NCBI RefSeq assembly: GCF_028641065.1
Contig: NC_073400.1
Location: 29,388,001 to 29,452,000 of the forward strand
Length of the DNA: 64,000 nucleotides
From: Leucoraja erinacea
Taxonomy: Eukaryota
Reading direction: 5' to 3'
The position numbers and the translations under genes were made by a program. The notes under the pieces were generated by a model. The model was not told where the DNA came from. It made no database searches and saw nothing but the letters and a program-made list of their open reading frames with translations. Shown here in pieces: positions 12,746 to 62,643 of this stretch. Each line of letters begins with the position of its first letter. The stretch's first letter is position 1.

Positions 12746-12880
12746 TCAATTGATAGCAATTGACAAAGCTGGGTGATATATATTTGATTGCTGTGCAGAA
12801 TTCCTTCGATGTTGGTGCAAGCTAGGAGTCTCCATTGTAATTGGTGGACCGTGTGTCGAGGTTCTGAATTCATCGCGTTT
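12746..12880 (-). CDS. Gene A terminal exon (KRDEFRTST ... SIAIN*)
   Basis: Same acceptor as in genes B and D; longer tail in the TM-exon frame. Confidence 0.6.
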   Translation of the reverse strand, partial: KRDEFRTSTHGPPITMETPSLHQHRRNSAQQSNIYHPALSIAIN

Positions 12881-15800
12881 CTGCAAAAGACAATGTGAAG
12901 TCATCAGACTAATTGACGCTGGGAACCAAAGATCCACAGGGTCTTTGCTGGGAGCCACGGTTTGTTTCACCTGACCGCTCGCAACACAATGCTGCCTGGA
13001 AGATCGATCCCAGCCAACCCACCTCAAGCACAGAAATCCACCCTGAAGGCATACAACCTGACAAAACGTGTGATATCATCTGCGGAGAGCTTTGGTTTGA
13101 CTTCAACATATGAAAAGGAGCACTGTTCTTGTTTGTGTCATTGGACAGGGCAATTGAAATCATTAATTAATTAAACCGTTTTCCGATACATTCGGCGGCG
13201 AGGAGCAATCTCTTTGGTCAGAGTGTGGCGATTCTGTGGAATTCATTGCCACAGAAGGCCGAGGAGGCCAAGTCAATTATCTCCAGAAATGCTGCTTGTC
13301 CCCCTGAGTCACTCCAGCATTTTGTTTCTGTCCAAGTCAATGGATATTTTTAAGGCAGAGATTGAGATTCTTTTGATAAGTACGGGTGTCTGGGGTTATG
13401 AGGTAAGGGCAGGAGAACGGGATTGAGATGTAAAGGTAGATCAGCCGTGATTGAATGGCGCACTAGACTTGATGGGCTGAATGGTCTAATTCTGCTCCGA
13501 TAATTTATGAACCCGAATATCTGACAATAAAACCTACCTCAGTGCCGCCTGTGAACAACGCGATTGAGATCCTCCAGATCACAAGCAGGAGAAAGAGCAC
13601 CCAGCGCCCCACTTTCCATGAGATGTAACTGGGCAAAGGGCAAGAAATACAGAGTCAATGGGAGGAAACGAGACGGTTTATCTTTGAAACATTTACCTGC
13701 TATTTACGTCCTAACCTTAGTGGAGTGAAGCGGGGAGAAACAGCAGAGCCAATGGAGATCAGCTGTGAGTAAGAACTGAGGGGGGTGGTTGGACTGAGAG
13801 GGGGGGGGGGGGAGGGGGGGGAGGGGGGGGGCGATTCAGAAAAACACAGAGAAACCATACATGAGGGCGTAGGCGTGAAACCAATGAATACAGTGCAATT
13901 CCTTGGGAGAAAGAAGGCGCAGCGGAAAGGAAGAGTATAATAAAATCCACATGGGTGGACATGAACATTAACGATGACTAATGGTGGAGGGGAGGCAAGG
14001 CAGGAAATGCAAAGAGATCAGGCCAATTAATAAAATGATTTAAACATAATAACGCTTGATCTCATATCACTCGATATTACTTGGATTAACGCGGTAGATG
14101 TTTGGATGGGGGAATCGAGTTCGGGTTGATGATCCTATCGCGCCCACACACATGAGGGAACCTCCAGTAACAGAACTTCCAGCCGATTGACCACCACAAT
14201 GACCACCCTGAACTATCAAACCCTCCATCACTTACCTTTGCCATTGACCTCAATGACCATGGTGCAGGTCCCGTCAGGGTTGGAGGTGACCACATTGACA
14301 ACCTCACTCAATATATTTCCTTGTGTATTTGAGGCTGCGCAGTAATATTGATGTAGTTGCGGTTTCAAGGACAGGCAATGCAGATCCAATGTATTGGTAT
14401 CTGACACCTTTGAATCCTCAGATGAGGTCCTCTCAAACCATGTGTATACAATGGGAAGAGATCCCTCGTGGGACTCACAGGACACTGATGCTGAACCCGC
14501 TAAACAGGAGACGTTGCCCGATGACTGGAATCCAAGTACAGGAACAGACACGGGTTCTGTTGGAAAGAATTACACATTGAGTAGACATCTGAAAAACAAT
14601 CCTTCTCCAAATTTGAAAACTTCTATATCTCAACCTGGACCCACCAGACTGGAACCTTACCAGCTTATCGACTGAAGAAGGGTCTCGACCCGAAAGGCCA
14701 CCTATTCCTTTTTCTCCAGAGATGGTGTCTACCCGCTGAGTCACTACAGTTTTTAGTATCTTTCATCTTATCTACCTCCCCGTGTCTCAGTATTGCTAAG
14801 ATGCCTGAATTGGGCATTAGATACCGTGTTATGGGAAATATGTTGTTGGCAGGACTCTAGGGTCTGAGCAATAGAGAGATTTTAAGGGGTAGGGGAAAAG
14901 ATTAATCGGAATTTTTGTAACTGGTAACTCTTTCAGATAAAGGGCGGTGGGTGTATGGAACGAACTTCCAGACGAGGTAGTCGAAGCAGGGACTATCACA
15001 ATGCTTAAGAAACAATTAGACAGGTACGTGGGTAGAAACAATATGCTGGATTAACTAAACGGGACAGGCAGCATCTCTGGATAGAAGGTGACGTTCCGGG
15101 TCGTGGTCCTTCTTCAGACTGTGTCAGGGGAGAGGGAGGCACAGAGATAAGGAAGAGGAATGTGTGAAAACGGGACATCAAAGCAGAAGGGCTCAAGGAC
15201 ATTGTAGAATAGATTATTGTTAGTAAGGAGAAGGTGGTAAAGAAATATGCAGAAAACATTTAATTGGGGGCAGTCGGACTCTCGGAGATAGAGGGAGAGA
15301 GAGAGAGACCGCGGGGTGGCGATGGGGTGACTGACCCGTGAATTGGGGACGGAGAGATTTAATAAGGTCATAGTTTCAAGGTGCAGAATTAGGCCATTCA
15401 GCCCATCATGTCAACCCCGCCATTCACAGTCATGGCTGATCTATTGTTCCCTCTTAACCCCATTCTCCTGCCTTCTCCACATAACCGCTTACACACTGGC
15501 CTGTTAACCTCCACCTTATAATATTCATTGGTTTGTGCTCCACAGCGGTCTGTGGGCAATGAATTCCTCAGATAGGTCACCTTCTGACTAAATAAATCCC
15601 TTCTGATCTTCTCTCTGAAGTACGTCCATTTATTCTCAGGCTATGGCCTCTGGCCCGAGTCTCTCGCACTAGTGGGAACATCATCTCCACGTCCACTCTA
15701 TCCAGGCCTTTCACTATACGGTAAGTATCAACTCAAGCGAGTAACGGCCCAGCGCTGTTAAACGCTCATTTGTTAACCCAACTTATTCCTGGGATCATTC

Positions 15801-18800
15801 TTGTAAACCTCCTCTGGCCCCTCTCCAGACCTAACACATCCTTCCTCAGATATGGTGCCTGGAACTGGTCATAACACTCCAAATAGAAACATAGAAAAAT
15901 AGGCGCAGGAGTAGGCCATTCGGCCCTTCAAGCCTGCACCGCCATTCAATATGGTCATGGCTGATCATCCAACTCAGTATCCAGTACCTGCCTTCTCTCC
16001 AAACCCCCTGATCCCTTTAGCCACAAGGGCCACATCTAATCCCCTGTTAAATATAGCCAATGAACTGGACTCAACTACTTTCTGTGGCAGAGAGTTCCAG
16101 AGATTCACCACTCTCTGTGTGAAAATGTCGTCTGACCAGCGCCTTATAGAGCCTCAGCATTACATCCATGTTTTTACATTCTATAAATAAATGCTAGCAT
16201 TGCATTCGCCTTCCTTACTACCGATTGGACTTGCAAATTAACAGTTCAGACGCAGGGAAATGTGTTAAGCATCCCACTTGAAGTGGGTGGCCGCTCAGTG
16301 GGACAGAGCACGCACTGGGTGAGAGCAACATGAGTGGGGTTTCCCGACCCCCGACCGCTCCCCGCAGGTCTCTGCACTGCTGCGGAGCCTCGGGATATCG
16401 GTGCTGCCCTGACCCTTCCCGGAGAAAACATGGATCAGGCATTTCAGTGGAGACGTCAAATCAATCGCTGAGAAACGTACCGTCAGATACTTTGAGATGT
16501 ACGTGAAACATTGCAATAATTCCACATCTGTACCGTCCTGTATCTCCAATCTGAAGATCCTCCACAGTCAAAGTAAATATTCCTCGTGCCGGGTTATCTG
16601 TGATTGACGCTCTTCCACTCCGTCCGCGTTGCCCATTCGTTTCCACCACATCTACACATTGGCGACTCTGCACACGGCACCAGTATTTTGTGTGTGTGCG
16701 GCACTCTGGTGCATAGTGACAATCGATTGTAATCGCTCTTCCCACAACTCCTCTTACATACGCCTTTCCCCACACTGCAGCTGAAACTGAAGGAGGGGAC
16801 TTTCAGAACTGAGAGGAACTGAACTGTTTCATGAAAGTTGATACATTTTGAAGATTAATGAAAGAAACCTTAAATGGTTCCATGATGTGTCATATTGCTT
16901 CACGGCCAATGTCTCCGCCCTGAAGTGCAGGCAGTGATGTTATTGAACCAGTTGTGTCAGTGTTCTGTCCCCGGGTCAGTACAATTTGGGTTCACTTCCC
17001 ACTCCAGATCCCTGAGCAGAAACTGGGCTGGGATCGCAGTGCGGTACTGAGGGAGCGCGGCAGTGTTGCAGGAGCTGCCTTTCAACAGCCCAAGCGGTGC
17101 CCGGCCTCTGATCCGACAGAAATACCCCACTTAGCTATATCATTGGCGGTGCCGCCGGCTGCGCCGCCAACATTCATCTCTCAACCGACTCTGGGCCGGA
17201 CCCGTGTTTAGATATTCACCGCCGCCATTGCCTTCAGAACGGCGAATAGGAAACACTTTGTCACACAGAGAGTTGTGAATCTGTGGAATTATATGCCTCA
17301 GAAGGTAGTGGAAGCAAATTATTTTGATGCTTACAATGGAGAATTAGATAGAGATCTTAGATTGCGGAGTCGGGGGATATGGGGAGAAGGCAGGAACCGG
17401 TTACTGATTGTGGATGATCAGCCATGATCACAGTGATTGGCGGTGCTGGCTCGAAGTGCGGAATGGCCTACTCCTGCACCTATTGTCTATTGTCTGTTCC
17501 TGGTGATGTCTGAACCACTGTCCTTTGGTACAGTTGTCTTGGAGTATATGCTCCAAATTTAGTCGCTATGTTATGCATATAAAGAATTCTTAGGGTTCAA
17601 TTTGACAATGTTGCAACAGTGCTTAAATTACTAACTTGGAGTCTGGAAATTCAGATGCGATCTCAGTTCCTACCATGATACATAGCGAGTTCGGATCCAT
17701 TGTATTAAATATTTCTAAGACTGGGAAACTTATAGCAGCAATGGTGACCATGAAGCCAGGAAATTATCACCCAACCCCATCTACCAGTCCTGCCCAGACT
17801 TGTTTACAAGCAGAGCCCCCACAACGAGCTTGGCTCTGAAGCGTCTTTCTGCAATGGCCCAGAAAGGAAAAAAAGCGAGATCAGTACAATAAATACTGGC
17901 TGTTTAAGAAGGAACTGCAGATGCTGGAAAATCGAAGGTACACAAAAATGCTGGAGAAACTCAGCGGGTGCAGCAGCATCTATTTGAGCGATGGAAATAG
18001 GCAACGTTTCGGCCCGAAACGTTGCCTATTTCCTTCGCTCATAGATGCTGCTGCACCCGCTGAGTTTCTCCAGCATTTTTGTGTACCTTCGATAAATACT
18101 GGCCTTGTGAGCCACACGCGTCCGGTGAAAATCAGTAACAAAACAATTAAATCTATTTGAATTCTAGAGCAAAATCGTTGATGTGCCATGTGGGTGAAAC
18201 GTACATCTCTACACGGTCAGAGGCAAAGGGCGTGTGGGAAATGATTCTAAATTTTAAGAGTAAAGGCAATCACGCCAGTCAGCTGTCGAGCAGAACCGTG
18301 GCATGATCTGAGGATCACAACGTGTTTTCCGCTTTTATAGAACTGAAGCCAATATGAACTTGAGAGAAAATATATCAGGGGCATTAGTTCCACAGAATCC
18401 AATGTGAGCGGGAGAAATTGTATCTGCGACATTAATTCCACAATTTCTGCCTTTCTGAAAATAAGGCTAGCAAAGAACATAGAAACGAAGAAACATAGAA
18501 AATGGGTGCAGGAGTAGGCCATTCGCTCCTTCGAGCCTGCACCGCCATTCAATATGATCATGGCTGATCATCCAACTCAGTGTCCTGTACCTGACGTCTC
18601 TCCATACCCTTTAGCCACAAGGGCCACATCTAACTCCCTCTTAAATATAGCCAATGAACTGGCCTCAACTACCCTCTGTGGCAGAGAGCTCCAGAGATTC
18701 ACCACTCTCTGTGTGGAAAATGTGCTTCTCAACTCGGTCCTAAAGGATTTCCCCTTTATCCTTAAACTGTGACCCCTTGTCCTGGACTTCCACAACATCG

Positions 18801-19446
18801 GGAACAATCTTCCTGCATCTAGCCTGTCCAACCGCTAAAGAATTTTGTAAGTTTCTATAAGATCCCTTCCTCAATCTTCTAAATACTAGCGAGTACAAGC
18901 CGAGTCTACCCAGTCTTTCTTTATATGAAAGTCCTGACATCCCAGGAATCAGTCTTTGAACCTTCTCTGTACTCCCGCTATGGCAAGAATGTATTTCCTC
19001 AGATTTGGAGACCAAAACTGTACGCAATACTCCAGGTGTGGTCTCACCAAGACCCTGTACAAGCGCAGTAGAACCTTCCTGCTCCTACACTCAAATCCTT
19101 TTGCCATGTTGCTCTTTCACGAAATAAAATGGTTTTCATTTCCCGGCCTTTGTAAGCCAAACTTCCTTTATATTACCAAATCCATTATGGCGTATGAAAG
19201 ACATGAAACAACAATGTATTCTGATTGAAAGGCATATTGGATAACATGAAATTCTGATCAAATAAATGACACTCCGACACCACAATGCACTGAGTTCCAT
19301 TGCCCCCATTATTTGCCTACACGTACGTAACCATCTCTGCTGTGGAAAGAGTACACGGAACCCCAAATAACATTGATTATTGGGATATTTAATTCTGGCT
19401 TTCACTCACCCGGCAGCGAGGAGATGAGAAGAATGGGAATCCACAT
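12746..19446 (-). CDS. Gene A: CD300/pIgR-like paralog lacking the stalk exon (secreted form or pseudogene)
   Basis: Exons 19410-19446, 16481-16786, 14236-14556, 13538-13628 and 12746-12880 are each open. The C2 exon ends in phase 1 and the TM exon starts in phase 2, and no EYSCE exon was found between them. Confidence 0.65.
13538..13628 (-). CDS. Gene A TM-type exon (YISWKVGRWVLFLLLVIWRISIALFTGGTE)
   Basis: 91-nt paralog of 23902-23992, with an extra Arg mid-helix. Confidence 0.75.
14236..14556 (-). CDS. Gene A C2/I-set Ig exon
   Basis: 321 nt; EPVSVPVLG ... QYYCAASN; donor G|gtaagt. Confidence 0.88.
16481..16786 (-). CDS. Gene A V-set Ig exon
   Basis: 306 nt; 8 nt differences from the gene B V exon by manual comparison. 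Confidence 0.9.
17901..18091. mobile_element. Palindromic Penelope-terminus/MER6-like element with a 12-bp TSD (duplicate at about 29332-29523)
   Basis: Hairpin of about 160 nt centred near 18012; flanked by ATAAATACTGGC at 17889-17900 and 18092-18103. Confidence 0.8.
18475..19107 (-). mobile_element. CR1 LINE 3' fragment in the gene A leader intron (paralog at 29913-30546)
   Basis: LVRPHLEYCVQFWSP ... RRLR; tail repeat. Confidence 0.9.
19410..19446 (-). CDS. Gene A leader exon (MWIPILLISSLP)
   Basis: ATG ... CCG G|gtgagt. Confidence 0.85.
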
Positions 19447-19549
19447 TATTTTATCCATAGTGGCAAGGCCAGCACTTGTCTGTCTGTCGCTCAGCTCTGA
19501 GCTCTCAGATACAACCGCATCTCTCTAATATCAACGGGGAAGATAGGAT

Positions 19550-19573
19550 CAGGAAGTCTGATCGTGAACCACA
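19550..19573 (-). promoter_or_regulatory. ETS (CAGGAAGT) plus RUNX (AACCACA) motif pair upstream of the gene A leader
   Basis: Same motifs and spacing at 30989-31012 and 56521-56544. Confidence 0.5.
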
Positions 19574-23250: not shown

Positions 23251-23292
23251 TCATTCGTGGGTCGAGTGGCGAGCTTCAGACTCATCGCGTCT
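23251..23292 (-). CDS. Gene B terminal coding exon (RRDESEARHSTHE*)
   Basis: tcttttgcag acceptor conserved in genes A, B and D; phase 0; no tyrosine motif. Confidence 0.72.
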   Translation of the reverse strand, partial: RRDESEARHSTHE

Positions 23293-26200
23293 CTGCAAAA
23301 GACAATGTGAAGTCATCAGACTCATTGACAGTGGGAACCACGCTTTATTTAACCCGACCACTCCCAACACATTGCTGTCTGGAAGATGGACTCTAAAGAA
23401 CCCACACCGGGCACAGAAATCCACCCTGCACACGTACAACCTGACAAAACCTCGTGATATCATCCACATAGAGGTTTGGTTTAACTTCAAGATATGAAAA
23501 CGTGCACGGCTTTTATTTCTATCAATGGACAGGACATTTGAAATCGTTAATGGAAACCGTTTGGAAACATTCGGCGAAGAGAAGTGATTGCTTTGGTCAG
23601 AGGGTGGTGAATCTATGGATGTCATTACCACAGGAGGCTGTGGAGGCCAAGTCAATTCACACCGGAGATGCTGCCTGTTCCGCTGAGCTACTTCGGCATT
23701 TTTGTATCTGTCCAAATCAATTGGTATTTTTAAGGCGGAGATTTTCATATTCTTGATAAATGAGGATGTCAAGAGTCATCGGGAGATGGCAGGAGAATGG
23801 GATCGAGAGGGAAGCCGTGATTGGGGGCGGATTAGATATGATGGGCTGAATGGCCTAATTCTGCTTCTATAATTCATGAGCACGATGACAATGACGCCTA
23901 CCTTCGAGCCTCTTGTGAACACCGCGGTTGAGATACTCCAGATCACAAGCACGAGAAAGACCATCCAGCGCCCCACTTTCCATGAGATGTAACTGGGCAA
24001 AGGGCAAGAAATACAGAATCACTGGGAGAAAACGAGACGGTTTATCTTCGAAACATTTATCTGTTATTTGCTTCATAATCTTGGTGAAGTGGAGCGGGGC
24101 GAAGCAGCAGAGTCAATGGAGATCAGTTTGGAGACAGAACGGGGTTTGGACTTGGGGGGGGGGGGGGGGGGGGGGGGGGTGTAGTTATGCTCACCAATTA
24201 CTGACGTCATTGCTGGAGCATGGCTACAAGGGAATGAGAGATTACGCGGTTAAATGGATTCGGAGAAGAGAGAGAAATGTCATGAGATGGAGCAGTGAAT
24301 ACAGTGAATACAGAGTAGATGCTGGTGAAACAGCGGGAGATGCAGCATTTCTGGAGAGAAGGAATGCGTGGTTTCGGATACAGACCCTCCTTCAGACTGG
24401 GAGTCACGGGAGAGAGAAACTGGGGATGTGGAAAGAAACAAAGAACAGTGTAATATCCTGGAAGAAAGAAATGCAGCTGCAAGGAAGATTAAAATAAAAC
24501 GCATATCAGAATCAGAATCAGAATCATACTTTATTCGCCAAGTATGTTCTGCAACATACGATAGGAACAATAAACCAGATCAATTCTAATGGTGCAAGGG
24601 AGATGGGGCAACAAATATGGAAACAGATGAGGCCAATTAATAAAATAAATTAAAAATGATAATGCTTAATCTCACATCCTCGATATTACTTGGATTAACG
24701 CGGCAGGTCTGTGGATATAGGAATCGTGTTCGAAAATTCGGTGAAAGGTTCGCTCCTAACGGCGTGGCTTTTGTTAACGTTCTTATATCCTAAGCCCCTC
24801 TCCCACCCACCCGCTCTGCACAGATCCATTCGCTCTCCTGTACACACGGGGCAATTTACAACTGGCACATCTTTGGGAGCTGGGAGGAAACTGGAGCACT
24901 TATATAAAATCAACACGATTAAAGGCAAAACATGCAGACTACACACAGACAGCACCTAATGGACCAGGGTCGTGGCGTTGTGAGGCTGTGATTCTTATCG
25001 GCTGTGTCACTGTGCATTCAGATCAATACTCTCACGGCATTCAATGCCAGTGAAAGGAAGGCACACGTTTCCCCCAATTAAAGAATTCCCAATCAAAACA
25101 CCAGCAATTTGTTCATTGTAACTTTCATTGGAAACAGAGCGGTTTACCTTGCAGAGTAATTGGATGCTATCAAATTTTCACAAGAATATTCATGACCTGG
25201 TGGAACAAGGAAATAAAAGTCAGTTTCACTGCTTTTCACTCCTCCCTGTGAACGCGTGGGCATTCTCCAAGTTCTCCAGTTTCCCCGCATTCTGAAGTCG
25301 TGCAAGTTTGTTGGTTAATTGGCTTCTGTAAATTGTCCCCATGGAACTAGTGTACTGGTGAATACTGGACGTTGTGTACTCAGTGGGCCGATGAACCGGC
25401 TTCCACAATGCACCCACAAACTAATCAAAAGGGTCCAATTTCACTTGAGAGGAGTATTGCTTGGGATGAAACATTACAGGGATGGGCAGGGGTTGGATAG
25501 GGGTTTTATGAAATTCCACGCAGAACAGGTGAGGAAGGGGGAACCTATTCCAGGTGTGCAAAACTGTGAGCAGCGTAGATAGGGTATTTTTGGAACATTT
25601 TGCACGGCAGATATGTGTAAAAGTGGAGAATATATGGTTAAGCTAAGGCGCAGGATGTTTCAAAGGTATCAAAGAATATTTTTAAACCTAGATGGAGGAA
25701 CCTGAATTGCCACAATGGACGAGGTGCTGGTAAATGAGATTAGTATCGATGGTACTGAATTGTTAACACTAACGCAGTGGAACAAATCTGATACCGTCGT
25801 CAAGGAGTTAACGGTGGCCACAGTTACTGCTAATATTCATGCCCTTACCATATCTGAGCGTGGATTATGCGGAGATGATGGTGGGAAAGTGACAGTGCTT
25901 GGACTGATGACAGTGCAAATCTAGATAAAAAGCTGTTTAAACATAAAATGAAGTAATTGCCAGGACGCTGGCCTACACCAGTACTGGGAGATCTATCTCT
26001 GGAGCCCATGAGCCCGCACCTCCTCCACTCCCACTTACACTTCTTCCCCTAAATCCTTCCGCTACTTACCAGTGTCATTGATTTCCACTAGAAAACTGCA
26101 GGGCGCGCCACTGCTGGAGATGGACACGTTGACCATTTCACTGGATTTTGATCCACGTTTATTTGAGGCTGTGCAATAATATTGATGATGCTGGTGTTTG

Positions 26201-29200
26201 CAGGATTGACAATGTAGATCCAGGGCATTGCTGTCTGAGATCTTGGCAACCGAAGATGGGGTATTTTCATACCAGGTGTAGCTAATGGGCAGTGATCCAC
26301 TGACCGACTCACAGGACACTGACACGGAGTCCCCGAGACAGGAGACATTGGCTGGTGACAGAAATCCAAGCACAGGAACAGACACGGGTTCTGTGGGAAA
26401 GGAGCAAACAGTCAGACACTGAGTAAACGTCTGAAAATCAAACACGCGCCAATAAGCAAAATTTCTGTATCTTAGCCAGAGCCGCCAGTTTGGAATCAGA
26501 CCCATCGATCTACATAGAGTCATAGAGTCATACAGCGTATAAACAGGCCCTTCGGTCTAACTTGCCCCCGCTGACCAACACAACCAATCTACACTAGTTC
26601 CACCTGCTCTTGCTTGGCCCTCAACCCTCTAAACTTATCCTATTGATGTACCTGTCCAAATTGTTCTTAAATGTTGCGATAGCACCTTGCATAACTACTC
26701 CGTCGCCAGTTCGTTTCATATACATGTACCTACCAACCTATGTGTAAGAACATAACTCCCCAAGTTCTTGTTAAATCATTCCACCCTCATCTTTAAACCA
26801 TGTAAGTACGTAAGTAAGTAAGTAAGTTTATTGGCCAAGTATTCACATACAAGGAATTTGCCTTGGTGCTCCGCCCACAAGTAACAACATGACATACAGT
26901 GACAGTTAGGAATGACTCAGAAAAAACACAGAAAACAGACATTAATAATAATAAAACAGTAATGATAAAACATCATTGATTAAGCATGTGAACCAATAAT
27001 TCCTCAGATAGGTCACCTTCTGACTAAATAAATCCCTTCTGATCGTACGTCCATTTATTCTCAGGCTATGGCCTCTGGCCCGAGTCTCTCGCACTAGTGG
27101 AAACATCATCTCCACGTCCACTCTATCCAGGCATTTCACTATACGGTAAGTATCAACTCAAGCGAGTAACGGCCCAGCGCTGTCAAACGCTCATCATTTG
27201 TTAACCCAACTTATTCCTGGGTTCATTCTTGTAAACCTCCTCTGGCCCCACTCCAGACCTAACACATCCTTCCTCAGATATGGTGCCTGGAACTGGTCAT
27301 AACACACCAAATAGAAACATAGAAAAATAGGCGCAGGAGTAGGTCATTCGGCCCTTCAAGCCTGCACCGCCATTCAATATGGTCATGGATGATCATCCAA
27401 TTCAGTATCCCGTACCTGCCTTCTCTCCATACCCCCTGATCCCTTTAGCCACAAGGGCCACATCTAACCCCCTCTTAAATATAGCCAATGAACTGGCCTC
27501 AACTACTTTCTGTGGCAGAGAGTTCCAGAGATTCACCACTCTCTGTGTGAAAATGTCGTCTGACCAGCGCCTTATAGAGCCTCAGCATTACATCCATGTT
27601 TTTACATTCTATAAATAAATGCTAGCATTGCATTCGCCTTCCTTACTACCGATTGGACTTGCAAATTAACAGTTCAGACGCAGGGAAATGTGTTGAGCAT
27701 CCCACTTGTAGTGGGTGGCCGCTCAGTGGGACAGAGCCCGCACTGGGTGAGAGCAACATGAGTGGGGTTTCCCGACCCCCGCCCGCTCCCCGCAGGTCTC
27801 TGCACTGCTGCGGAGCCTCGGGATATCGGTGCTGCCCTGACCCTTCCCGGAGAAAACATGGATCAGGCATTTCAGTGGAGACGTCAAATTAATCGCTGAG
27901 AAACGTACCGTCAGATACTTTGAGATGTACGTGAAACATTGCAATAATTCCACATCTGTACCGTCCTGTATCTCCAATCTGAAGATCCTCCACAGTCAAA
28001 GTAAATATTCCTCGTGCCGGTATATCTGTGATTGACATTCTTCCACTCCGTCCGCGTTGCCCATTCGTTTCCACCACATCTGCACATTGGCGACTCTGCA
28101 CACGGCACCAGTATTTTGTGTGTGAGCGGTACTCTGGTGCATAGTGACAATCGATTGTAATCGCTCTTCCCACAACTCCTCTTACATACGCCTTTCCCCA
28201 CACTGCACCTGAAACTGAAGGAGGGAACTTTCAGAACTGAGAGGAACTGAACTGTTTCATGAAAGTTGATACATTTTGAAGATTACATGAAAGAAAACTT
28301 AAATGGTTCCATGATGTGTCATATTGCTTCACGACCAATGTCTCCGGTCTGAAGTGCAGGCAGTGCTGTTATTGTACCAGTTGTGTCAGTGTTCTGTCCC
28401 CGGGTCAGTACAATTTGGGTTCACTTCCCACTCCAGATCCCCGAGCAGAAACTGGGCTGGGATCGCAGTGCGGTACTGAGGGAGCGCGGTTGTGTTGCAG
28501 GAGCTGCCTTTCAACAGCCCAAGCGGTGCCCGGCCTCTCATCCGACAGAAATACCCCACTTAGCTATATCATTGGCGGTGCCGCCGGCTGCGCCGCCAAC
28601 ATTCATCTCTGAACCGACACTGGGCCGGACCCGTGTTTAGATATTCACCGCCGCCATTGCCTTCAGAACGGCGAAGAGGAAACACTTTTTCACACAGAGA
28701 GTTGTGAATCTGTGGAATTATATGCCTCAGAAGGTATTGGAAGCCAATTATTTTGATGCTTACAATGGAGAATTAGATAGAGATCTTAGATTGCGGAGTC
28801 GGGGGACATGGGGAGAAGGCAGGAACCGGTTACTGATTGTGGATGATCAGCCATGATCACAGTGATTGGCGGTGCTGGCTCGAAGTGCGGAATGGCCTAC
28901 TCCTGCACCTATTGTCTATTGTCTGTTCCTGGTGATGTCTGAACCTCTGTCCTTTGATACAGTTCGCTTGGAGTGTATGCTCCAAATTTAATCGCTATGT
29001 TATGCATATAAAGAATTCTTAGGGTTCAATTTGACAATGTTGCAACAGTGCTTAAATTACTAACTTGGAGCCTGGAAATTCAGATGCGATCTCATTTCCT
29101 ACCATGATACATAGCGAGTTCGGATCCATTGTATTAAATATTTCCAAGACTGGGCAACTTATAGCAGCAATGGTGACCATGAAGCCAGGAAATTATCACC

Positions 29201-30885
29201 CAACCCCATCTACCAGTCCTGCCCAGACTTGTTTACAAGCAGAGCCCCCACAACGAGCTTGGCTCTGAAGCGTCTTTCTGCAATGGCCCAGAAAGGAAAA
29301 AAAAAGAGAGATCAGTGCAATAAATACTGGCTGTTTAAGAAGGAACTGCAGATGCTGGAAAATCGAAGGTACACAAAAATGCTGGAGAAACTCAGAGGGT
29401 GCAGCAGCATCTATTTGAGCGATGGAAATAGGCAACGTTTCGGGCCGAAACTTTGCCTATTTCCTTCGCTCATAGATGCAGCTGCACCCGCTGAGTTTCC
29501 CCAGCATTTTTTGTGTACCTTCAATAAATACTGGCCTTGTGAGCCACGCGCGTCCGGTGAAAATCAGTAACAAAACAATTAAATCTATTTGAATTCTAGA
29601 GCAGAATCGTTGATGTGCCATGTGGGTGAAGCGTACATCTCTACACGGTCAGAGGCAAAGGGCGTGTGGGAAGTGACTCTAAATTTTAAGAGTAAAGGCA
29701 GTCACGCCAGTCAGCTGTCGAACAGAACCGTGGCATGATCTGAGGATCACAACGTGTTTTCCGACGGGATTTTATAGAACTGAAGCCAATGTGAACTCGA
29801 GAGAAAATATATCAGGGGCATTAGTTCCACAGAAGCCAATGTGAGCGGGAGAAATTGTATCTGCGACATTAATTCCACAATTTCTGCCTTTCTGAAAATG
29901 AGGCTAGCAAAGAACATAGAAACGAAGAAACATAGAAAATGGGTGCAGGAGTAGGCCATTCCCTCCTTCGAGCCTGCACCGCCATTCAACATGATCATGG
30001 CTGATCATCCAACTCAGTGTCCTGTACCTGACGTCTCTCCATACCCTTTACCACAAGGGCCACATCCAACTCCCTCTTAAATATAGCCAATGAACTGGCC
30101 TCAACTACCCTCTGTGGCAGAGAGTTCCAGAGATTCACCACTCTCTGTGTGGAAAATGTGTTTCTCAACTCGGTCCTAAAGGATTTCCCCCTTTATCCTT
30201 AAACTGTGACCCCTTGTCCTGGACTTCCACAACATCGGGAACAATCTTCCTGCATCTAGCCTGTCCAACCGCTAAAGAATTTTGTAAGTTTCTATAAGAT
30301 CCCCCCCCTCAATCTTCTAAATACTAGCGAGTACAAGCCGAGTCTATCCAGTCTTTCTTCATATGAAAGTCCTGACATCCCAGGAATCAGACTGGCGAAC
30401 CTTCTCTGTACTCCCTTTATGGCAAGAATGTCTTTCCTCAGATTTGGAGACCAAAACTGTACGCAATACTCCAGGTGTGGTCTCACCAAGACCCTGTACA
30501 AGCGCAGTAGAACCTCCCTGCTCCTATACTCAAATCCTTTTGCCATGTTGCTCTTTCACGAAATAAAATGGTTTTCATTGCCCGGCCTTTGTAAGCCAAA
30601 CTTCCTTTATATTACCAAATCCATTATGGCGTATGAAATATATGAAACAACAATGTATTCTGATTCAAAGGCATATTGGATAACATAAAATTTTGATCAA
30701 ATAAATGACACGCCGACACCACAATGCACTGAGTTCCATTGCCCCCATTACACGCCTACACGTACGTAACCATCTCTGCTGTGGAAAGAGTACACGGAAC
30801 CCCAACTAACATTGATTATTGGGATATTTAATTCTGGCTATCACTCACCCGGCAACGAGGAGATGAGAAGAATGGGAATCCACAT
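23251..30885 (-). CDS. Gene B: activating-type CD300/pIgR-like (MDIR-like) receptor, leader-V-C2-stalk-charged TM-short tail; 281 aa
   Basis: Exons 30849-30885, 27909-28214, 26070-26390, 25148-25196, 23902-23992 and 23251-23292 total 846 nt, in frame, with canonical splice sites. Confidence 0.82.
23902..23992 (-). CDS. Gene B TM exon (YISWKVGRWMVFLVLVIWSISTAVFTRGSK)
   Basis: 91 nt, phase 2 to 0; Lys and Arg at the N-terminal end of the helix. Confidence 0.85.
25148..25196 (-). CDS. Gene B stalk exon (GHEYSCENLIASNYSAS)
   Basis: 49 nt, phase 1 to 2; polypyrimidine acceptor and AG|gtaaac donor. Confidence 0.8.
26070..26390 (-). CDS. Gene B C2/I-set Ig exon
   Basis: 321 nt, phase 1-1; VSCES, YTWY, QYYCTASN. 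Confidence 0.9.
27909..28214 (-). CDS. Gene B V-set Ig exon
   Basis: 306 nt, phase 1-1; IDC, KYWC, DTGRYRC; shortened F-G loop. Confidence 0.9.
30849..30885 (-). CDS. Gene B leader exon (MWIPILLISSLP)
   Basis: ATG ... CCG G|gtgagt. Confidence 0.85.
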
Positions 30886-30988
30886 TGTTTTATCCATAGT
30901 GACAAGGCCAGCACTTGTCTGCCTGTCGCTCAGCTCTGAGCTCTCAGATACAACCGCATCTCTCTAATATCAACGAGGAAGATAGGAT

Positions 30989-31012
30989 CAGGAAGTCTGA
31001 TCGTGAACCACA
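30989..31012 (-). promoter_or_regulatory. ETS plus RUNX motif pair upstream of the gene B leader
   Basis: CAGGAAGT ... AACCACA, about 100-130 nt upstream of the ATG. Confidence 0.5.
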
Positions 31013-32753
31013 GCGAGCCAGCAGCAGCGCGACACGTTACAGTGTGAAAGGCTCAGGGTTATATTTAACAAATGGTTGGGTCAGATTGTCACAGAGACAT
31101 ATAGCTCGGAGACAGGCACTTCTCCCCAACGTGTTAGACCAAGATGCTTATCTAGGTTAGTCAAAATTGCCCACGTTTGACCCATATCTCCCCAAACCCT
31201 TTCTATCTATGGGCCTGCCCAATTGTAATTCAGAGCTAATAAATTAGCAGAGTTGTGTTCATGAAAATATTATTTGCTGACTTTGTACATCTGTTTGTGA
31301 TGATTAATTTAATTAATGTTTGCATGATAATATAACATGTCATCTGCTGCGGGCTACCGTTCTGGGTGTTTTACTTTCAGGTTGTGGTATCGGTGTAACA
31401 CAATGATGTGTCCGCCACTGATGTTAGTTGAGCGTTGGCGACCCTCAGTAAATGATCTTGTGTTCAGAACTATTTCCTGTTTACTTGCCCAACTAAAAAC
31501 ACTGCAGAGAGGAATCGACGATGCAGCAAAACAATTTAATCCTGTCTTCATTCGCCATTGACCCATGACTTCTGCAAACACTGCTCAGCAATCAGTGTTA
31601 CAACGAGCTGCTCGCTAGATGCGGTTCAGAGATACGAATCTACACGAATATTCGAACCTTGTTTCAGCAGCGCGAGCAAAGTGTCAGCACTGCAGAACAA
31701 TTCAGTGTAAAGAAAGAAATGACTGTTTGAACATATTAGATTAAAGTACATTCCAAGTCAGCACTTGCCATTAAAAACAACAATGGCATCGAACCGAAAT
31801 GTCACCCATTCTTTCCTTCCAGTGATGCTGCCTATCCCGCTGAATTGCTCCAGTATTTTGTGTCTATCTGTGGCATCTCAGACCGTTTATCTCTCACTAT
31901 CCTTTAGGCAATTTAGGATGTCCTGTAGTGGGGAAACGCTGAACGAGCCAGGCAGCAAATATCTCTGGCTATTCAGCACCCCTCGGATATCCCTGACCTG
32001 GTGGTTTCTGATTTCAAAGCAACCCCTGGTCTCATTTCCTCGTCTCCCCGCTTACTGCTCTTTCAAGCTGCAACCCAACCAGTTTGTTCTGCACAAGAAT
32101 GGACTTTCCACTAGTTTAGTTTAGGATATAGCGCGGAAACAGGCCCTTCGGCCCGCCGAGTCCACACGATCCCGTTGCGCCACCGTGGCCATTGTGTAAA
32201 ATAGTTTAGTTTAGTTTAGTGGGCCGAAGTGCCTATTTCCACGCTGCAGCCATAAAACTAATCTGAAGGGAGCAATTCAACTTGAGAGGTGTATTGCTTG
32301 GGATGAAACGTTAGGTATGGGGAGGGGTTGGATAGGGATTTTATAAAATTCCATGCAGAACAGGTGAGGAAAAGGGAACCCATTACAGGTGTGCAAAACT
32401 TTGAGCAGCAAAGATAGGGTATTTTTGGAACGTTTTCCACGGCAGATATGTGTAAAAATGGAGAACATTTGGTTAAGTTAAGGAGCAGGATGTTTCAAGG
32501 GGAACAAGAAATATGTTTAAACCTAGAAGATGGAGGTAACTGAATTGCCACAATGGACGAGGTGCTGGTAAATGAGATTAGTATCGATGGTACTGAATGG
32601 TCAACATTAACACAGTGGAACAAATCTGATACCGGCGTCCAGGAGTTAACGGTGGCCACATTTACTGCTAATATTCATTCCCTTATCGTATCTGAGTGCG
32701 CATCCTGCGGAGATGATGGTGGGAAAGTAAAAGTGCTTGGACTGATAATACTG

Positions 32754-39591: not shown

Positions 39592-39858
39592 CTAAGAAAC
39601 GACAGAGGCATAGGTTGACTCAGTGTTCTCTGGAGTCATAGTAGAGTGGGGTTTCCGAATGCCCTTTGGGCAGTTGCGGTGAAAATTGACATCTGCGTAG
39701 ACGACAGCGTGTTCAGCCGCATGCTGCCTTGATCTCAACTTCCTTTGACAATTCACCACTGCATACGCGATTCCACCTTCATTGTTATCCAAATGGTCAC
39801 CTGCCCTGTTGTTTTCCAGATTTGAATCAACGTGGTTCCCTTCCATCACTGCCATTTC
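39592..39858 (-). CDS. Gene C terminal exon with three ITIMs (IAYAVV, VVYADV, STYASV)
   Basis: tttcag|GAA ATG GCA ...; three matches to [ISVL]xYxx[ILV]; ends in TAG. Confidence 0.88.
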   Translation of the reverse strand, partial: EMAVMEGNHVDSNLENNRAGDHLDNNEGGIAYAVVNCQRKLRSRQHAAEHAVVYADVNFHRNCPKGIRKPHSTMTPENTESTYASVVS

Positions 39859-42800
39859 CTGAAATATAACAAAATCCCATTTTACAACCTAATAGATTTG
39901 AAAGGTCCTCAACAGAGGTCTATTACAAAGTAGGTCTCAAACTGTTCAGTGTACAGAACAAGCCATGGCTACTGTTTACAACACAAAGATAGTGCAGCAC
40001 GGTGGAGCAGCGGTAGAGTTGCTGCCTGACAGCGCCTACAACAGGTTTGTATTTTAGGTTAATTGGTTTGGTTTAATTGCAAATTGCCCCTAGTGTGTGT
40101 AGGATAGTGTTCGTGTGCGAGGTCACCCGTCGGCGTGGACTCGGTGGGCCAAATGGCGTGTTTCTGCGCTAGATCTCTCAACTGGAGTGGACTGGTGTTG
40201 CTAAATGTATATTTCACATTGTTACCTGGGTTTCATCGTTGTCTTCACCGTGTGATGTATTGTACTTGGATTCTGGAAAATATGTTGTCGATAGGGCCAT
40301 ATCAGGAACAGGTTTAAACATCATTCATTTATATATTTCATTCATGTGTTCCATGTACCTTCTATATCTCTCGTTTCCCTTTCCCCTGACTCTCAATCTG
40401 AAGAAGGGTCGCGACTCGAAACGTCACCTGTTCCTTTTCAAGAGTCAAGGGAGTTTTATTGTCATATGTCCCAGATAGAACAATGACAATCTTACTTGCT
40501 GCAGCACAATAGAATATGTAAACATAGTACATAACGGGAGAGAAAAAAAAGTTCAGTGTGTATATATACACATACATACATACTCAATCTGTTTATTTTA
40601 TCCAGGTAAGCTAACTACTATATTTGATGATTTTCTGTTGCGCTGCTGGCAAAATGTCGCTTCTGACCCGCTAATTGCTAGAGCATTTAATGTTTATCTT
40701 CAGTATTAACCACCATGTGCAGTTCCTTCCAACACACAAACATCTACATGTTTTGTGCAAGACTTTATATTTAGGAGAACCCCAAAAGTACTTCAGTATA
40801 TTTGCACGTACGGAGTAAGTGTATGCCCTCTTGTTCTGGTTACTCTACGTAATGTTCAGAATGGATCATATTCCCTGTGCTCTACCCATTCCACCCTAAA
40901 GCTACCTAAACCTACCTGATCTCCCTGTTGCTCAACACGTTAACTCCACCTCCCATTCCCACACTAACTATTCTGTCCTGGGCCTCATCCGGATGTTAGA
41001 CTAACTGGTCTGTAATTCCCCGTTTTCTCTCTCGCTCTCTTTTTAAAAAGTGGGGTTACATTAGCTACCCTCCAATCCTCAGTAACTACTCCAGAATCTA
41101 AAGAGTTTTGAAAAATTATCACTAATGCATCCACAATTTCTTGGGCTACTTCCTTAAGTACTCTGGGATGCAGCCTCCTATCTTGCCCAGGGAATTTATC
41201 GGCCTTTAATCCATTCAATTTACCAAACACCACTTTCCGGCATATCTGGATTTCACTCAGTTCCTCCATCTCATTTGACCCCTGGTCCCCTGCTATTTCC
41301 GGCAGATTATTTATGTCTTCCTTAGTGAAGACAGAACCAAAGTAGTTATTCAATTGTTCTGTCATGTCTTTGTTTCCCATGATCAATTCACCGGTTTTTG
41401 ACTGCAAGGGACCTACATTTGTTTTAACTAATCTTTTTCTCTTCACATATCTATAAACACTTTTGCAGTCAGTTTTTTATGTTCCCTGCCAGTTTTCTTT
41501 CATAATCTATTTTCCCTTTCCTAATTAAGCCCCTTGTCCTCCTCTGTGGACTCTGAATTTCTCCCTCTCCTCTTGTATGCTGCTTTTTTCTGGCTAATTT
41601 GTATGCTTATTCTTTTGTTTTGATACTATCCCTGATTTCAGCTCTGTGAACCTTCAAGTTTTCATCGGCAGCGGAGATAGTTGGCAGCTTCAAGTTCATG
41701 GGCGTTCACATCTTGGATTACCTGCCCAGGCTAGACTTGCCCGGCCTCAACTACCTCCTCTGGCAGCTCCTGCCATATACCCACCGCCCTCTGTGTGATG
41801 CAGGTATGTCGTACGTTTTCTATGTCCCTGTGAGGCTGCAGGCGTGATCTTCATTGTAACTGTACTTCAACGTGCTTGTTCATTTGACAATTAGCACGAC
41901 TTAACCTGATTCGAAATACAATAGCAAAACACAAAAGCATATTCTAACAGCTGAGAGGATGAGAGTATCTATGTAAATCTTACTTCTACCTAACCTCTTA
42001 GTTCTCATGCATCTCTGCTATTTCACACTCAGTTTCTGTACAATTATGTTAAAATAACATTTTATGTCACCGAGTCACCATGATAGCATCAAACATGATA
42101 GCATTATTGATCATTCATGCTTCCTCCTACTCTTTATTACTTTAATGCAGGGCATTTGTTGATTAGAACAGGATAAAATCTCTTGACATTCTGTAAGGAG
42201 CTGAGACATGTATTTTGAAATTATTTAAGATAAATCAGAAACTCACCCTTGGTTTTACGCTTTTGGTACCAAAAGAAGGCAATTATGAGAATCAGGAAAA
42301 GCACAGTGACACCAGACGCAACTATGTAAATGATCCTGTTGGACAGAAAATAGGGAAGGGTGAGACATGGCTCATCATTGATTCTTGGCCTTCAGTAAAG
42401 AACAAAAGTCAAACATTTATATGGCACCTTTCATGATTTTTATGAAGTGTGCAGCAAAGGAAATGAGGTGTAGAGTCTGTTTCAGTGGGTAATGCAGCAG
42501 TTAATCTGCTCACAGTAAGGTGACATTGACCAACGATCGTGCAACTGGTTGAAGAGCAATTGGGTCCAACCATTAAGGAACCCTCCCCTCTCCTTCACTA
42601 AAAATGCATGGGAAATGTTACACTTTTATAGCAATGATTAGTTGAGTTGAGTTCAGCTGAGTTTGGTTTAGTTTAGTTTAGTTTAAGTTAGTTTAATTTA
42701 TTTTATTTTAAAGATACAACATGGAAACAGGACTTTCCGACCACCAAATCTGCGTCGACCAGCAATCACCATATATTATATCTACCCGAAACATTAGAGA

Positions 42801-45800
42801 CAATTTACAGAAGCCAATTAACCTACAAACCTGCACGTCTTTGGAATGCGGGAAAAAACGGGAACATCTGGAGAACACCCACGTGGTCACTGAGAGAACG
42901 AACAAACTCCGTACATACAGCAACTGTAGTCAGGATCGATCACAATCTCTGGGGCAGTATGGCAGCAACTACATCGCTGTCCCACCATGCCACAGTTATT
43001 GGAGTTTTCATATCTGACAGCTAGCACGCTGCCCTCCTTCAGTACTGCAATGGTGTGGTACCCGATTTACCCTAATATTTGAAGCTATCCTTGAAACCAC
43101 CACTTTGTGAACACGGTTCTACAACCCTGTTCCAACCTCGGCAGAGAGAACACTACGCCAAAGAGAAAACAATGCACTTCTTTCAACAATTCTCACCCCA
43201 AAGCCATTTACATCTCCATCTCCACCAACATTGGTTTGGACAGTGACTGCTCGTTTAGGGCTGTCTGGAATATGGAACATCTACAACATATCCAGAAGGC
43301 GGCTCACCTTGACCATCTCAAGGTCAGCAGTGTGACCTAACGTGCCTACCACACAGGGTCACGTTCTAGGTGGAGACACTTCCTGCTGTTGGAGTGACTG
43401 ACATTGAGACTTTGACAAACTCCGTAAGTTGGTGTTTTAGCCCATAATTCACTATGCATTTTCCTACCAGTACCACCAGAGCAGGTCACAGCAAGGCAAC
43501 GCAGCAATAGTTGTGTTTGGCAACTATACTCATCTCACACCATGGGATGAGGTTAGTGATGGAGAACTCATGGTGAAAACCACAGGGAACGCCCTATAGA
43601 AACATAGAAACATGGAAAATATGTGCAGGAGGAGGCCATTCGGCCCTTTGAGTCAGCTCCGCCATACATTGTGATAATGGCTGATCGTCCCCAATCAATA
43701 AACCCTGCCTGCCTTCTCCCCATATCCCTTGATTCCACCAGCCCCTAGAGCTCTATCTAACAAGAGAGGGTTAGATACTTGACGCCGTACGTCACGCGCG
43801 AACTGCCCGCGGACTTCGCTCGAACTTCACGTCACTCACTCGACCTCCGCGCAGCCCCCGCGTCCAGTTTGGTCGCGCTTGCCGCATGTAGGTCGCATGC
43901 TGGTGGGACCGCCCCTCCACATCAGCAAGACAAAATGGTGACTGGACGATTGTTTCACTGAACACATATGCTCAGTCCGCCTGGGACTATATGATCTCCC
44001 AGTTGCTAACCTATTTAACTCCCCCTCCCATTCCCACACTGACTGTTCTATTCTGGGCTTTCTCCATTGCCAGAATGAGGCCGAATGGAACTTGGAGGAA
44101 CAGTGCCACACATTTCGCTTGGGCATCTTACAGCCAAGCGGCATAAATATTGATTTCTATAACTTCAAATAACCCTTGCATCCCCTCTCTCTCCGTCCCT
44201 CCCCCACCCTAGTCATTGCACGAATTTCACTGTTGTCTTGGAGTGTTTCATTGTCTGTACAACTCGTTTTCACCTAGCCCACAGCTAACTATGGATCGTT
44301 TCATTCATCATCGTAACTTTTGTTGCATATCTTTCATTCAATGTTTTATATCTTTCTATATCACCGTCGATATCGTTCTCGTTTCCCTTTCCCCTGACTC
44401 CCACTCTGAAGAGGGGTCTCAACCTAAAACGTCACCTATACCTTTTCTCCAGAGACGCTGTCTGACCCGACGAGTTACTCCAGTTGTTTGTATCTATATT
44501 CAGTTTAAACCAGCATCTGCAGTTCCTTCCAACACAATGAAAGTCGAAAGTTGCTGAACGCACATAGACGGCACCTAAGTTCGGGGTCTTGGCATTGTGA
44601 GGCTGTGGTTCCACTGGCTGTGTCTGGGCATTCAGATCAATAATCTCATGGGCCTTTAATGCCAGTGAACGGAGGAACCAACTTTCTCCCAATTGAAGCA
44701 ATCCCAATCAAAACACCAGCAATTAGTACATGGCGCCTTTCATTGGACACAGAGTATTTTACCTTGATGAATCATTGGATTCTTTCGAGGTTTCACAAGA
44801 ATATTCAAGTCCTGTTGGAACAAGGAAATAAAAATCAGTTTCACTGATTTTCACTTGCAGTTGAAGAAGAGAGCATGCTTGTCCGATGTAAGGAGTTTAT
44901 AGGTTTAATAGACAGGGCAATGTTTCTCCAGTGTAATTTGCAGCAAATGGGAGATGATTGCACAACTCAGGTAGAACTCAGGTCGCCGACATTAGGGCGG
45001 CACAGCGGTAGAGTTGTTGCCTTGCAGCGCCAAAGACCCGGGTTCAATCCTGACTACGGGTACAATCTGCACGGAGTTCGTATGTTCTCCCTGTGACCGC
45101 GTGGGTTTTATTCAAATGCTCCGGTTTTCTCCCACATTCTAAAGTCGTGCAGGTTTTGAGGTTAATTGCCTTCTGTAAATTGTCCCTAGTGAGTAGGATG
45201 GAATTTGTGCACCGGTGAAAAGCAGCTACTTCCACCTGGAATTCTAAACAAAACTAAAGGAGGTGATTTCATGCGAGGGATAGTGCCTGGGATGAAACAT
45301 TACAGTTCGAAGGAGAAGGCTGGATAGATGGGGATTTTAATCCATACAGGAAAAGAAGGGGGGACCTATTACAGCTGTGCAAAGCTATGAGGAACATAGA
45401 TAGGGTACTTTGTGGGAAATCAGCACAGCAGATGTGCGTAGAAATGGAGAACATAAGGTTGGGTTAAGGAGTAGAATATTTGGAGGGTATATGAGCAAGA
45501 CTTATTTTTAAACTTAGATAGTGGAGGCACTTGAATTGTCAAGTCTGAGAAGACTGTGGACGAGGGGCTGGTAAATGGATTAGTATCGATGGTTCTGAAT
45601 GGTCAACATTAACACTGTGGACCAAAGCTGAGGAGTCCAGAGTCCTCGAGGAGTTATCTGCGGCCACATTTACGGATAATTTCTGTTCCCTTCCCATATT
45701 TGAGCGTCGGTCATGTGGAGATGATGGAAAGTGAAAGTGCTTGGACTGATGTCACTGCAAACCTAGTTTAAAGGTGTGTAAACATAAGAGGAAGTTCTAG

Positions 45801-54800: not shown

Positions 54801-54831
54801 GGTGTCGAGAGAGGCGCCAGCAAATAAAATG

Positions 54832-54881
<50 letters not shown>

Positions 54882-56419: not shown

Positions 56420-56520
56420 TGTTTTATCCAGTGACAAGGCCAGCACTTGTCTGTCTGTCGCTCAGTTCTGAGCTTTCAGATACAACCCCGTCTCTCAAAT
56501 AGCAATGACTTAGAAGGGAA

Positions 56521-59324: not shown

Positions 59325-59521
59325 AAGAAGCATTCTGTTGCATTATTATTCATTAATCTGTGGGGAAAAATCCAGGAAATTGTATGCATATAGTATGGTT
59401 TAACAGAGGATAAAACTCTGAAGCAGCAGAAACCACGCAAAGGTTAAAACAATAGTTCGAAGCTGACGAAAGAAACCTTGGAAGAGTTGGCAAAAATTAA
59501 GATGGTGCAAGCTAGGAGTCT

Positions 59522-59569
59522 TCATTGTAATTCGTGGGTCGAGTGGCGAGGTTCTGTGTCATCGCGTCT
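59522..59569 (-). CDS. Gene D terminal coding exon (RRDDTEPRHSTHELQ*)
   Basis: Paralog of 23251-23292. Confidence 0.72.
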   Translation of the reverse strand, partial: RRDDTEPRHSTHELQ

Positions 59570-60168
59570 CTGCAAAAGACAATGTGAAGTCATCAGACAG
59601 ACTGACAGTGGGAACCACGCTTTATTTGTCCTGGCCACTCCCAACACATTGCTGTCTGCAAGATGCTAACCCACGAATTAGTTACTCCAATGCCAACGAA
59701 CCCACACCGGGCACAGAAATCTACGCTGCACACGTACAACCTGACAGAACCTCGTGATATCATCCACATAGAGATTTGGTTTATCTTCAGGATATGAAAA
59801 CGTGCACGATTTTTGTTTCTATTGATGGACAGGATATATGAAAGCATTAATGAAAAACCGTTTGGAAACACTCGGCGAAGAGAAGGGATTGCTTTGGGCG
59901 AATCCCTTCTGGTGAATCTATGGATTTCATTGCCACAGGAGGCTGTGGAGGCCAAGTTAATTCATACCGGAGATGCTGCCTGTCCCGCTGAGCTACTCCA
60001 GCATTTTTGTATCTGTCCAAATCAATTGATATTTTTAAGGCGGAGATTTCCATTTTCTTGATAAATAAGGATGTCAATGGTTATGGGGAGAAGGCAGGTG
60101 AATGGGATCGAGAGAGAAGGATAGATCAGCCGTTATTGGGGGCCGATTAGATATGATGAGCTGAATGG

Positions 60169-62591: not shown

Positions 62592-62643
62592 ATGGCCTAA
62601 TTCTGCTCCTATAATTTATGAACATGATGACAGTAAACCCTAC

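What the first reader, a model, noticed from the sequence alone, without database searches (positions are those of the whole stretch)
23251..28214. Gene B looks like a chimera: inhibitory-type ectodomain on an activating TM/tail
B's C2 exon, stalk exon and surrounding introns (about 24960-26520) match gene C about 44580-46520. Its TM exon, tail and 3' region match genes A and D. Its V resembles gene C V2 (WGKAYVRG vs WGETYVRG; RVQSRQCADVV vs RVQNRQCTDMV) and carries V3-type downstream intron sequence. The switch point lies near a SINE remnant at about 24830-24960. Established: activating partners often arise this way to counter pathogen decoys.
Basis: partly seen in the sequence, partly recalled or inferred. 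Interest (0 to 1): 0.7.

Follow-up and report, generated by a model that had tools for sequence, protein, structure and literature searches.

The report
Skate immune receptor with borrowed tip
In a skate's already known immune-receptor gene cluster, gene B is a mosaic, but not the one proposed: its front 4.5 kb (leader, outer domain and presumed promoter) is 97% identical to neighbouring gene A and was likely copied from A onto an older, predicted activating receptor body, an ordinary kind of shuffling in such clusters.

Summary
The window lies in a skate MDIR (CD300/pIgR-like) receptor cluster. With 200 kb more of the cluster, B's C2, stalk and introns are not gene C's: a B+C clade is rejected in 7 of 7 segments. 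B's C2-stalk-TM-tail is an MDIR5-type unit, 81% identical to clearnose-skate MDIR5. It runs on through 24830-24960 with genes I and H; C only seems to stop there because C, D and K carry an insertion. B's real recent junction is at 26994: leader and V (31450-26994) are 97.4% identical to gene A. A is the likely donor, since an old repeat is whole in A and cut in B. An older, family-wide exchange boundary lies near 25750. The true inhibitory/activating ectodomain pairs are C/D, H/J and E/M. Activation, expression of B and any pathogen role are untested. The scan found this family and process before on other skate DNA.

The parts
30849..30897 (-). Gene B leader exon (MDKTMWIPILLISSLP)
   Evidence: ATG and GT donor; in frame in the spliced model
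27909..28214 (-). Gene B V exon, 97.3% identical to A's V, sharing a 15-nt deletion absent from all other V exons
   Evidence: Pfam V-set; tree 100/99
26070..26390 (-). Gene B membrane-proximal C2-type exon (type shared by B, C, D twice, H, I, J, K)
   Evidence: Pfam Ig_3; tree and identities
25148..25196 (-). Gene B stalk exon GHEYSCENLIASNYSA, MDIR5/gene I type
23902..23992 (-). Gene B TM exon with Arg near the outer end of the hydrophobic stretch (WKVGRW)
23251..23292 (-). Gene B tail exon RRDESEARHSTHE-stop, no tyrosine
   Evidence: matches the MDIR5 C-terminus
26994..31450 (-). Block shared with gene A (A about 15557-19990): presumed promoter, leader, intron 1, V, downstream intron; 114 substitutions in 4442 aligned bases
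26867..27000 (.). 3' junction of the block: an old repeat is cut at 26994 and abuts a different, younger repeat
25700..25900 (.). Approximate older family-wide boundary: 5' of it ITIM and Arg-TM copies are mixed, 3' of it B/H/I separate from C/J/K
24809..24990 (.).
43915..44535 (.). Insertion in C, shared with D (93.9%) and K (88.8%), which ends the visible B-C match
12749..19458 (-). Gene A, likely donor: leader 19458-19410, V 16786-16481, divergent C2 14556-14236, no stalk exon found, TM exon 13628-13538
15430..15730 (.). Old repeat that is whole across the junction position (15557) in gene A
39592..56430 (-). Gene C, predicted inhibitory: four V, two C2, stalk 44811-44763, uncharged TM 42335-42247, tail with IAYAVV, VVYADV, STYASV
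59500..64000 (-). 3' part of gene D (TM 62734-62644, tail from 59569); its C-like ectodomain and stalk lie just beyond the window

Best explanation
Gene B encodes a predicted 285-residue, likely activating MDIR5-type receptor whose leader and V domain were likely copied from neighbouring gene A onto an older C2-stalk-TM-tail body. Shown: an intact six-exon frame; a 4.5 kb block 97.4% identical to A, which starts inside shared upstream homology near 31450 and ends at a non-homologous join at 26994; a 3' body continuous with genes I and H and with MDIR5. Inferred: direction A to B; a one-sided, conversion-like event after the split from Amblyraja; signalling through an FcR-gamma/CD3-zeta-type adaptor by the TM arginine, with V binding the ligand. 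B would then bind much the same ligand as A under a similar promoter, but signal from the membrane. The resemblance to C reflects family-wide sharing of this C2 type, mixed between ITIM and Arg-TM genes 5' of about 25750.
For: A/B mismatches: 57 of 423 upstream versus 114 of 4442 inside the block, Fisher p 1.4e-20. A+B are 100/100 in the leader and V blocks, but their C2 exons are 71.3% alike. Direction: 38 of 40 listed genomic matches span A's junction position, the other two being A itself and B's cut copy; for B, 38 of 40 cover only the younger repeat and none but B itself spans the join. The sister of the A/B V is an Amblyraja V that sits on an A-type C2 (99/96; C2 92% identical). B+C is rejected in 7 of 7 segments, p-AU 0.0077 to 6e-6. 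After the C2, B sides with I at 148 and with C at 65 of 213 informative sites. B's C2-to-tail is 81.4% identical to MDIR5 and 83.2% to an Amblyraja model over 167 aa without gaps. The TM Arg is present in 39 of 39 motif matches among 116 database proteins. Two TCR_zetazeta-family loci exist in G000.
Against: AU tests do not reject an A+B clade outside the block (upstream p 0.225; C2 exon p 0.088; pre-TM p 0.356), so the borders rest on the identity step. B+I is rejected upstream of the block and in the TM-tail intron: B belongs to the lineage of I, H and D but is not I's sister everywhere. The cut in B's repeat could also follow a later insertion plus deletion. The Amblyraja evidence is automatic gene models, and models of this cluster fuse neighbours (P0011, P0003). 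Gene I's leader-V region is full of small insertions and gave no V for comparison. B has KxxR, not the NxxR motif (4 of 39 relatives have N). From recall, the MDIR paper did not count MDIR5 as activating. Expression of B was not shown.
Confidence: 0.75

Rival explanations
1. One reading: B is a recent chimera of gene C's ectodomain on an A/D-type TM and tail, switching at 24830-24960.
For: B matches C over C2 and stalk. The V lineages are sisters. B's C2 region is closer to C, J and K (85-92%) than the intron behind 25750 is (71-76%), so some older mixing took place.
Against: B+C rejected in 7 of 7 segments. B's stalk groups with I at 100/100. The apparent switch is an insertion in C, D and K. 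The same C2-stalk-TM join is in MDIR5 and in an Amblyraja model.
Confidence: 0.04
2. Direction reversed or mutual: A took its leader and V from B, or both are levelled repeatedly.
For: A has lost its stalk and has a changed tail frame, so it may be the less constrained copy. B's end branch is shorter than A's in the V trees.
Against: The old repeat is whole in A and cut in B. The Amblyraja A-type C2 carries the sister V, while its B-type C2-stalk-TM follows a different V type.
Confidence: 0.12
3. B and A are transcribed as one unit (B leader-V-C2 spliced to A V-C2), as the database model P0011 has it, and B's own stalk, TM and tail are skipped.
For: P0011 has this structure. Almost no reads lay on B's C2 and TM bins in four runs.
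Against: A has its own leader. B's stalk, TM and tail have AG/GT borders, an open frame and 81% identity to MDIR5. Other models fuse D with C and G with H in the same way.
Confidence: 0.05
4. The A/B block is an assembly artefact (two haplotypes or a misjoin).
For: The assembly is poor nearby at gene I. No DNA reads were laid across the junction.
Against: The 114 substitutions are spread evenly over 4.4 kb. Both copies have distinct intact 3' halves. The 5' border grades into 87% paralogous sequence.
Confidence: 0.04

Closest known systems
MDIR5 of clearnose skate (P0036; family of Cannon et al. 2006, PMID 16738934, not held and not read)
   Same: Leader, V, C2, GHEYSC stalk, WKVGRW TM and short tail; 81.4% identical over the last 167 aa.
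   Different: MDIR5 has V-C2-V-C2. B has one V-C2, and its V comes from the gene A lineage instead of the V type that precedes this C2 in MDIR5, C, D, H, J and K.
MDIR3 (P0015) and MDIR2 (P0079), tyrosine-motif MDIRs
   Same: Genes C, J and K match the MDIR3 layout, stalk, TM and tail; E matches MDIR2. The outer V domains of MDIR3 and MDIR5 group together (100/98), the same pairing pattern.
   Different: B has no tyrosine motif and another stalk and TM.
Paired CEACAM receptors of mammals and Xenopus (PMC5112662, abstract read)
   Same: Binding domains of opposite-signalling paralogues adjusted by recent gene conversion; applies to C/D, H/J and E/M.
   Different: Unrelated family. B's recent donor is not an inhibitory gene. 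No pathogen ligand is known here.
Xenopus XFL TM1 receptors, LILRA2, PIR-A, NKp46, FcalphaR (PMC2413239, passages read)
   Same: Arg near the N-terminal end of the TM and a short tail; these associate with FcR-gamma. The paper also reports intergenic exon recombination.
   Different: B reads KxxR, not NxxR. Association is untested in skate.
Human LILRA6/LILRB3 and LILRA3 (PMC3894450, abstract; 'soluble LILRA3' from the search listing of PMC10679719)
   Same: Activating, inhibitory and soluble members with alike ectodomains in one cluster.
   Different: Unrelated ectodomains; A's secretion is only predicted.

Membership tests
MDIR | Ectodomain built of CD300/pIgR-like V modules and C2-type modules | tested here: met
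   Pfam V-set and Ig_3; V 61-68% identical to MDIR2, 3, 5
MDIR | Multigene cluster with charged-TM and tyrosine-motif forms | tested here: met
   About 13 gene units over 220 kb with both tail types
MDIR5 subtype | GHEYSC stalk, WKVGRW TM, short tail without tyrosine | tested here: met
MDIR5 subtype | Four-domain V-C2-V-C2 ectodomain | tested here: not met
   B has one V and one C2; MDIR5-like, not a one-to-one orthologue
Paired receptor made by conversion from an inhibitory gene | Ectodomain groups with one inhibitory paralogue while the TM groups with activating genes | tested here: not met
   B+C rejected. Met for D/C, H/J, M/E
Paired receptor made by conversion from an inhibitory gene | Sharp breakpoint between ectodomain and TM exons | tested here: inconclusive
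   None at 24830-24960; an older shared boundary near 25750, direction unknown
FcR-gamma-coupled activating receptors (TM1 type) | NxxR motif at the TM N-terminus | tested here: inconclusive
   Arg conserved, Asn replaced by Lys in B (motif from PMC2413239)
FcR-gamma-coupled activating receptors (TM1 type) | Physical association with the adaptor and activating signal | not testable with these tools
   Only the presence of two adaptor-family loci was shown
Pathogen-decoy counter-receptor | Shared microbial ligand with an inhibitory partner | not testable with these tools
   No ligand known

The most novel reading that the evidence does not exclude
A, B and C form a three-way set around one V lineage: A is a secreted receptor made by loss of the stalk exon, C carries the sister V on an ITIM tail, and B was built recently by grafting the secreted receptor's V and promoter onto an adaptor-coupled body. 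That would turn a soluble binder into an activating sensor, a route different from the usual inhibitory-to-activating conversion. Stalk loss as a switch to secretion would have happened twice (A and H).
Probability: 0.25. Interest if true: 0.45.

Novelty: new member of a known kind. Interest (0 to 1): 0.27.

Why it matters
It corrects the finding and maps real junctions in a little-studied cartilaginous-fish receptor cluster. The cluster shows three inhibitory/Arg-TM pairs levelled by exchange, plus one graft between two non-inhibitory genes. This extends a process well known in mammals and frogs to skates, and gives named pairs for ligand tests. It is not a new mechanism. It also shows that database models fuse neighbouring genes here.

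Tried and rejected
No RNA holder listed for the stretch. Reads of four RNA runs (X7, X9, X13, X16; 1-25% of each run read) on B were swamped by repeats; the V bin had depth 0-3.2, the C2 and TM bins 0-0.27, so expression of B is neither shown nor excluded. On A's C2-TM stretch, X13 gave 16 reads, with depth on both exons and none in the intron, but no joint row; X14, X15 and X16 gave only repeat-edge reads. Positive selection after the A/B copy: 6.5 amino-acid-changing versus 0.5 silent differences, but dN 0.029 is about the 2.6% block background, so not supported; over 171 V pairs mean dN 0.175 and dS 0.170, dN above dS in 84. A specific K-to-B conversion in the C2: only one site is unique to B and K, rejected as unproven. 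'V3-type intron' as a transfer: rejected. Rows left out: gene I's V from the V trees (many small insertions, likely poor consensus); D from the first intron segment (deletion); H from the stalk tree (no stalk); the V tree used 20 of 116 database proteins (three skate species), and its pattern missed some domains. GARD and RDP were not available; segment trees, AU tests and informative sites were used instead. Cannon 2006 and a 2010 review were not held; their text and supplements may already describe this shuffling. A bioRxiv NILT paper gave nothing (passages). No notes near this place in the scan.

Full report
Setting. The window is G000:C24:29388001-29452000. B's V exon is 100% identical to a protein that its source labels Leucoraja erinacea, and 61-68% identical to clearnose-skate MDIR2, 3 and 5. 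MDIRs are described as a multigene family of activating/inhibitory receptors resembling CD300, TREM and pIgR (PMC3031540, passages). I added 200 kb beyond the window. Exon mapping gave about 13 units, named A to M. A, B, D, H and I share one Arg-TM type, with M and F more distant. C, J and K share an uncharged TM and a tyrosine-motif tail, with E more distant.

Gene B. Six exons with AG/GT borders give an open 285-residue frame: leader, V, C2, stalk, TM, and a tail without tyrosine. The last 167 residues are 81.4% identical to MDIR5 and 83.2% to an Amblyraja model, without gaps. The C2-stalk-TM-tail join is therefore older than this species.

They exist, but they are not specific to C. D's C2 and stalk lie 1.4-2.7 kb beyond the window and match B as well as C does. 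In the C2 tree B is in an unresolved group, while C pairs with D, H with J and E with M. A B+C clade is rejected in 7 of 7 segments, some overlapping: leader block p-AU 6.4e-5 and C2 exon 0.0077; upstream intron 7.3e-6; two intron pieces 1.1e-4 and 1.3e-5, stalk 6.3e-6, post-stalk 4.3e-5. In the stalk and adjoining intron B groups with I, or I and H, at 100/99-100.

The proposed switch. C, D and K share an insertion that starts at the position matching B 24912; B, H and I lack it. B aligns across 24830-24960 with I and H. The 'V3-type' intron lies behind six other V exons at 87-97% besides A's, and in part behind C.V2.

What remains of the idea for B. Upstream of about 25750, B is 85-92% like all copies whatever their tail. 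From there to the stalk region it is 87-92% like I and 71-76% like C, J and K. So the C2 region has been mixed between the two classes, in an older event shared with H and I. The direction is unknown. B's V lineage is sister to C.V2, but both lineages exist in Amblyraja (96/87), so that kinship is old too.

The real recent junction. B 31450-26994 is 97.4% identical to A (114 of 4442), against 57 of 423 mismatches just upstream (p 1.4e-20) and 71.3% for the C2 exons. A and B share a 15-nt deletion in V that the Amblyraja sister V lacks, which places the copy after that split (inference). At the 3' end an old repeat is whole in A: 38 of 40 listed matches span it, of 4835 candidates with 40 scored. 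In B it is cut at 26994 and abuts another repeat; none of the 39 other listed matches spans the join, of 4262 candidates with 40 scored. The Amblyraja V closest to A/B sits on an A-type C2. Both point to A as donor. Against this: AU tests do not reject A+B outside the block, the outgroup data are automatic models, and no DNA reads were laid across the junction.

How it likely works. V would bind the ligand and the TM arginine would recruit an FcR-gamma/CD3-zeta-type adaptor. The Arg is in 39 of 39 motif matches among 116 proteins. Two adaptor-family loci are in G000. Receptors with an N-terminal NxxR TM associate with FcR-gamma (PMC2413239, passages). B has KxxR, and by recall the MDIR paper did not class MDIR5 as activating, so this step is inferred. 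A lacks a stalk exon, and direct splicing would give a secreted form. A's C2 and TM exons carry a few reads in one run, with no joint shown. B's expression was not shown. No excess of amino-acid change over background was found between the A and B V exons.

D is 93-98% like C in most windows from its last V through the stalk, then carries an Arg-TM. H is 91.2% like J over 7.9 kb, and M pairs with E. MDIR3 and MDIR5 of the clearnose skate also share outer V domains. This is the paired-receptor conversion pattern described for CEACAMs (PMC5112662, abstract).

Novelty. Seven searches of the paper library on skate or cartilaginous-fish MDIR/CD300-like receptors listed no paper on conversion in this cluster. 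The founding paper and a review were not held and may cover it. Earlier, unreviewed scan notes report the same family and process in other skate genomes; they are not independent support. Verdict: a real mosaic gene of a known family, made by a known process, with the donor and breakpoint differing from those proposed. Interest 0.27.

Noticed in passing
window 13538-14556 (gene A): No stalk exon in the 607-bp C2-TM intron. Direct splicing shifts the frame and ends in a 16-residue peptide, with the stop 41 nt before the next junction, so A is predicted to be secreted. The Amblyraja model P0027 ends in the same peptide. A's TM frame has an extra Arg and its tail frame differs.
   Followed up: partly
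window 59500-64000 and L001-L002 (gene D): D is the clear chimera: 93-98% like C in most 300-bp windows from its last V through C2 and stalk to cluster position 64536, sharing C's insertion, then an Arg-TM. It sides with C at 138 of 160 informative sites.
   Followed up: yes
L006-L010 (genes H and J): H (Arg-TM) and J (ITIM) are 91.2% identical over 7.9 kb of ectodomain; H then turns I-like, and its stalk exon is lost.
   Followed up: yes
L003 and L016 (genes E and M): E (MDIR2-like tail) and M (Arg-TM) share V (93.3%) and C2 (96.4%).
   Followed up: partly
window 31955-34180: Orphan V exon (33754-33443, open frame) followed by a piece of C2-stalk intron 87% like B's: relic of a deleted gene, with no leader found.
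   Followed up: partly
window 8107-9609, + strand: Broken C2-like fragments and a leader-like exon on the opposite strand, likely a pseudogene at the cluster edge.
   Followed up: partly
L008 (gene I leader to V): About 3 kb with many small insertions against gene J; looks like an unpolished consensus, so I's V cannot be judged.
   Followed up: partly
database proteins P0011, P0003, P0016, P0021: Automatic models fuse neighbouring genes (B+A, D+C, J+K, G+H) and drop the Arg-TM exons or read them out of frame.
   Followed up: partly
G000:C24:29629000-29778000: A second array of 16 more distant V-like matches (29-36% identity) follows the MDIR cluster.
   Followed up: no
window 60272-62503: Long open frames of a young interspersed element inside D's TM-tail intron; LINE-type by recall, not tested.
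   Followed up: no
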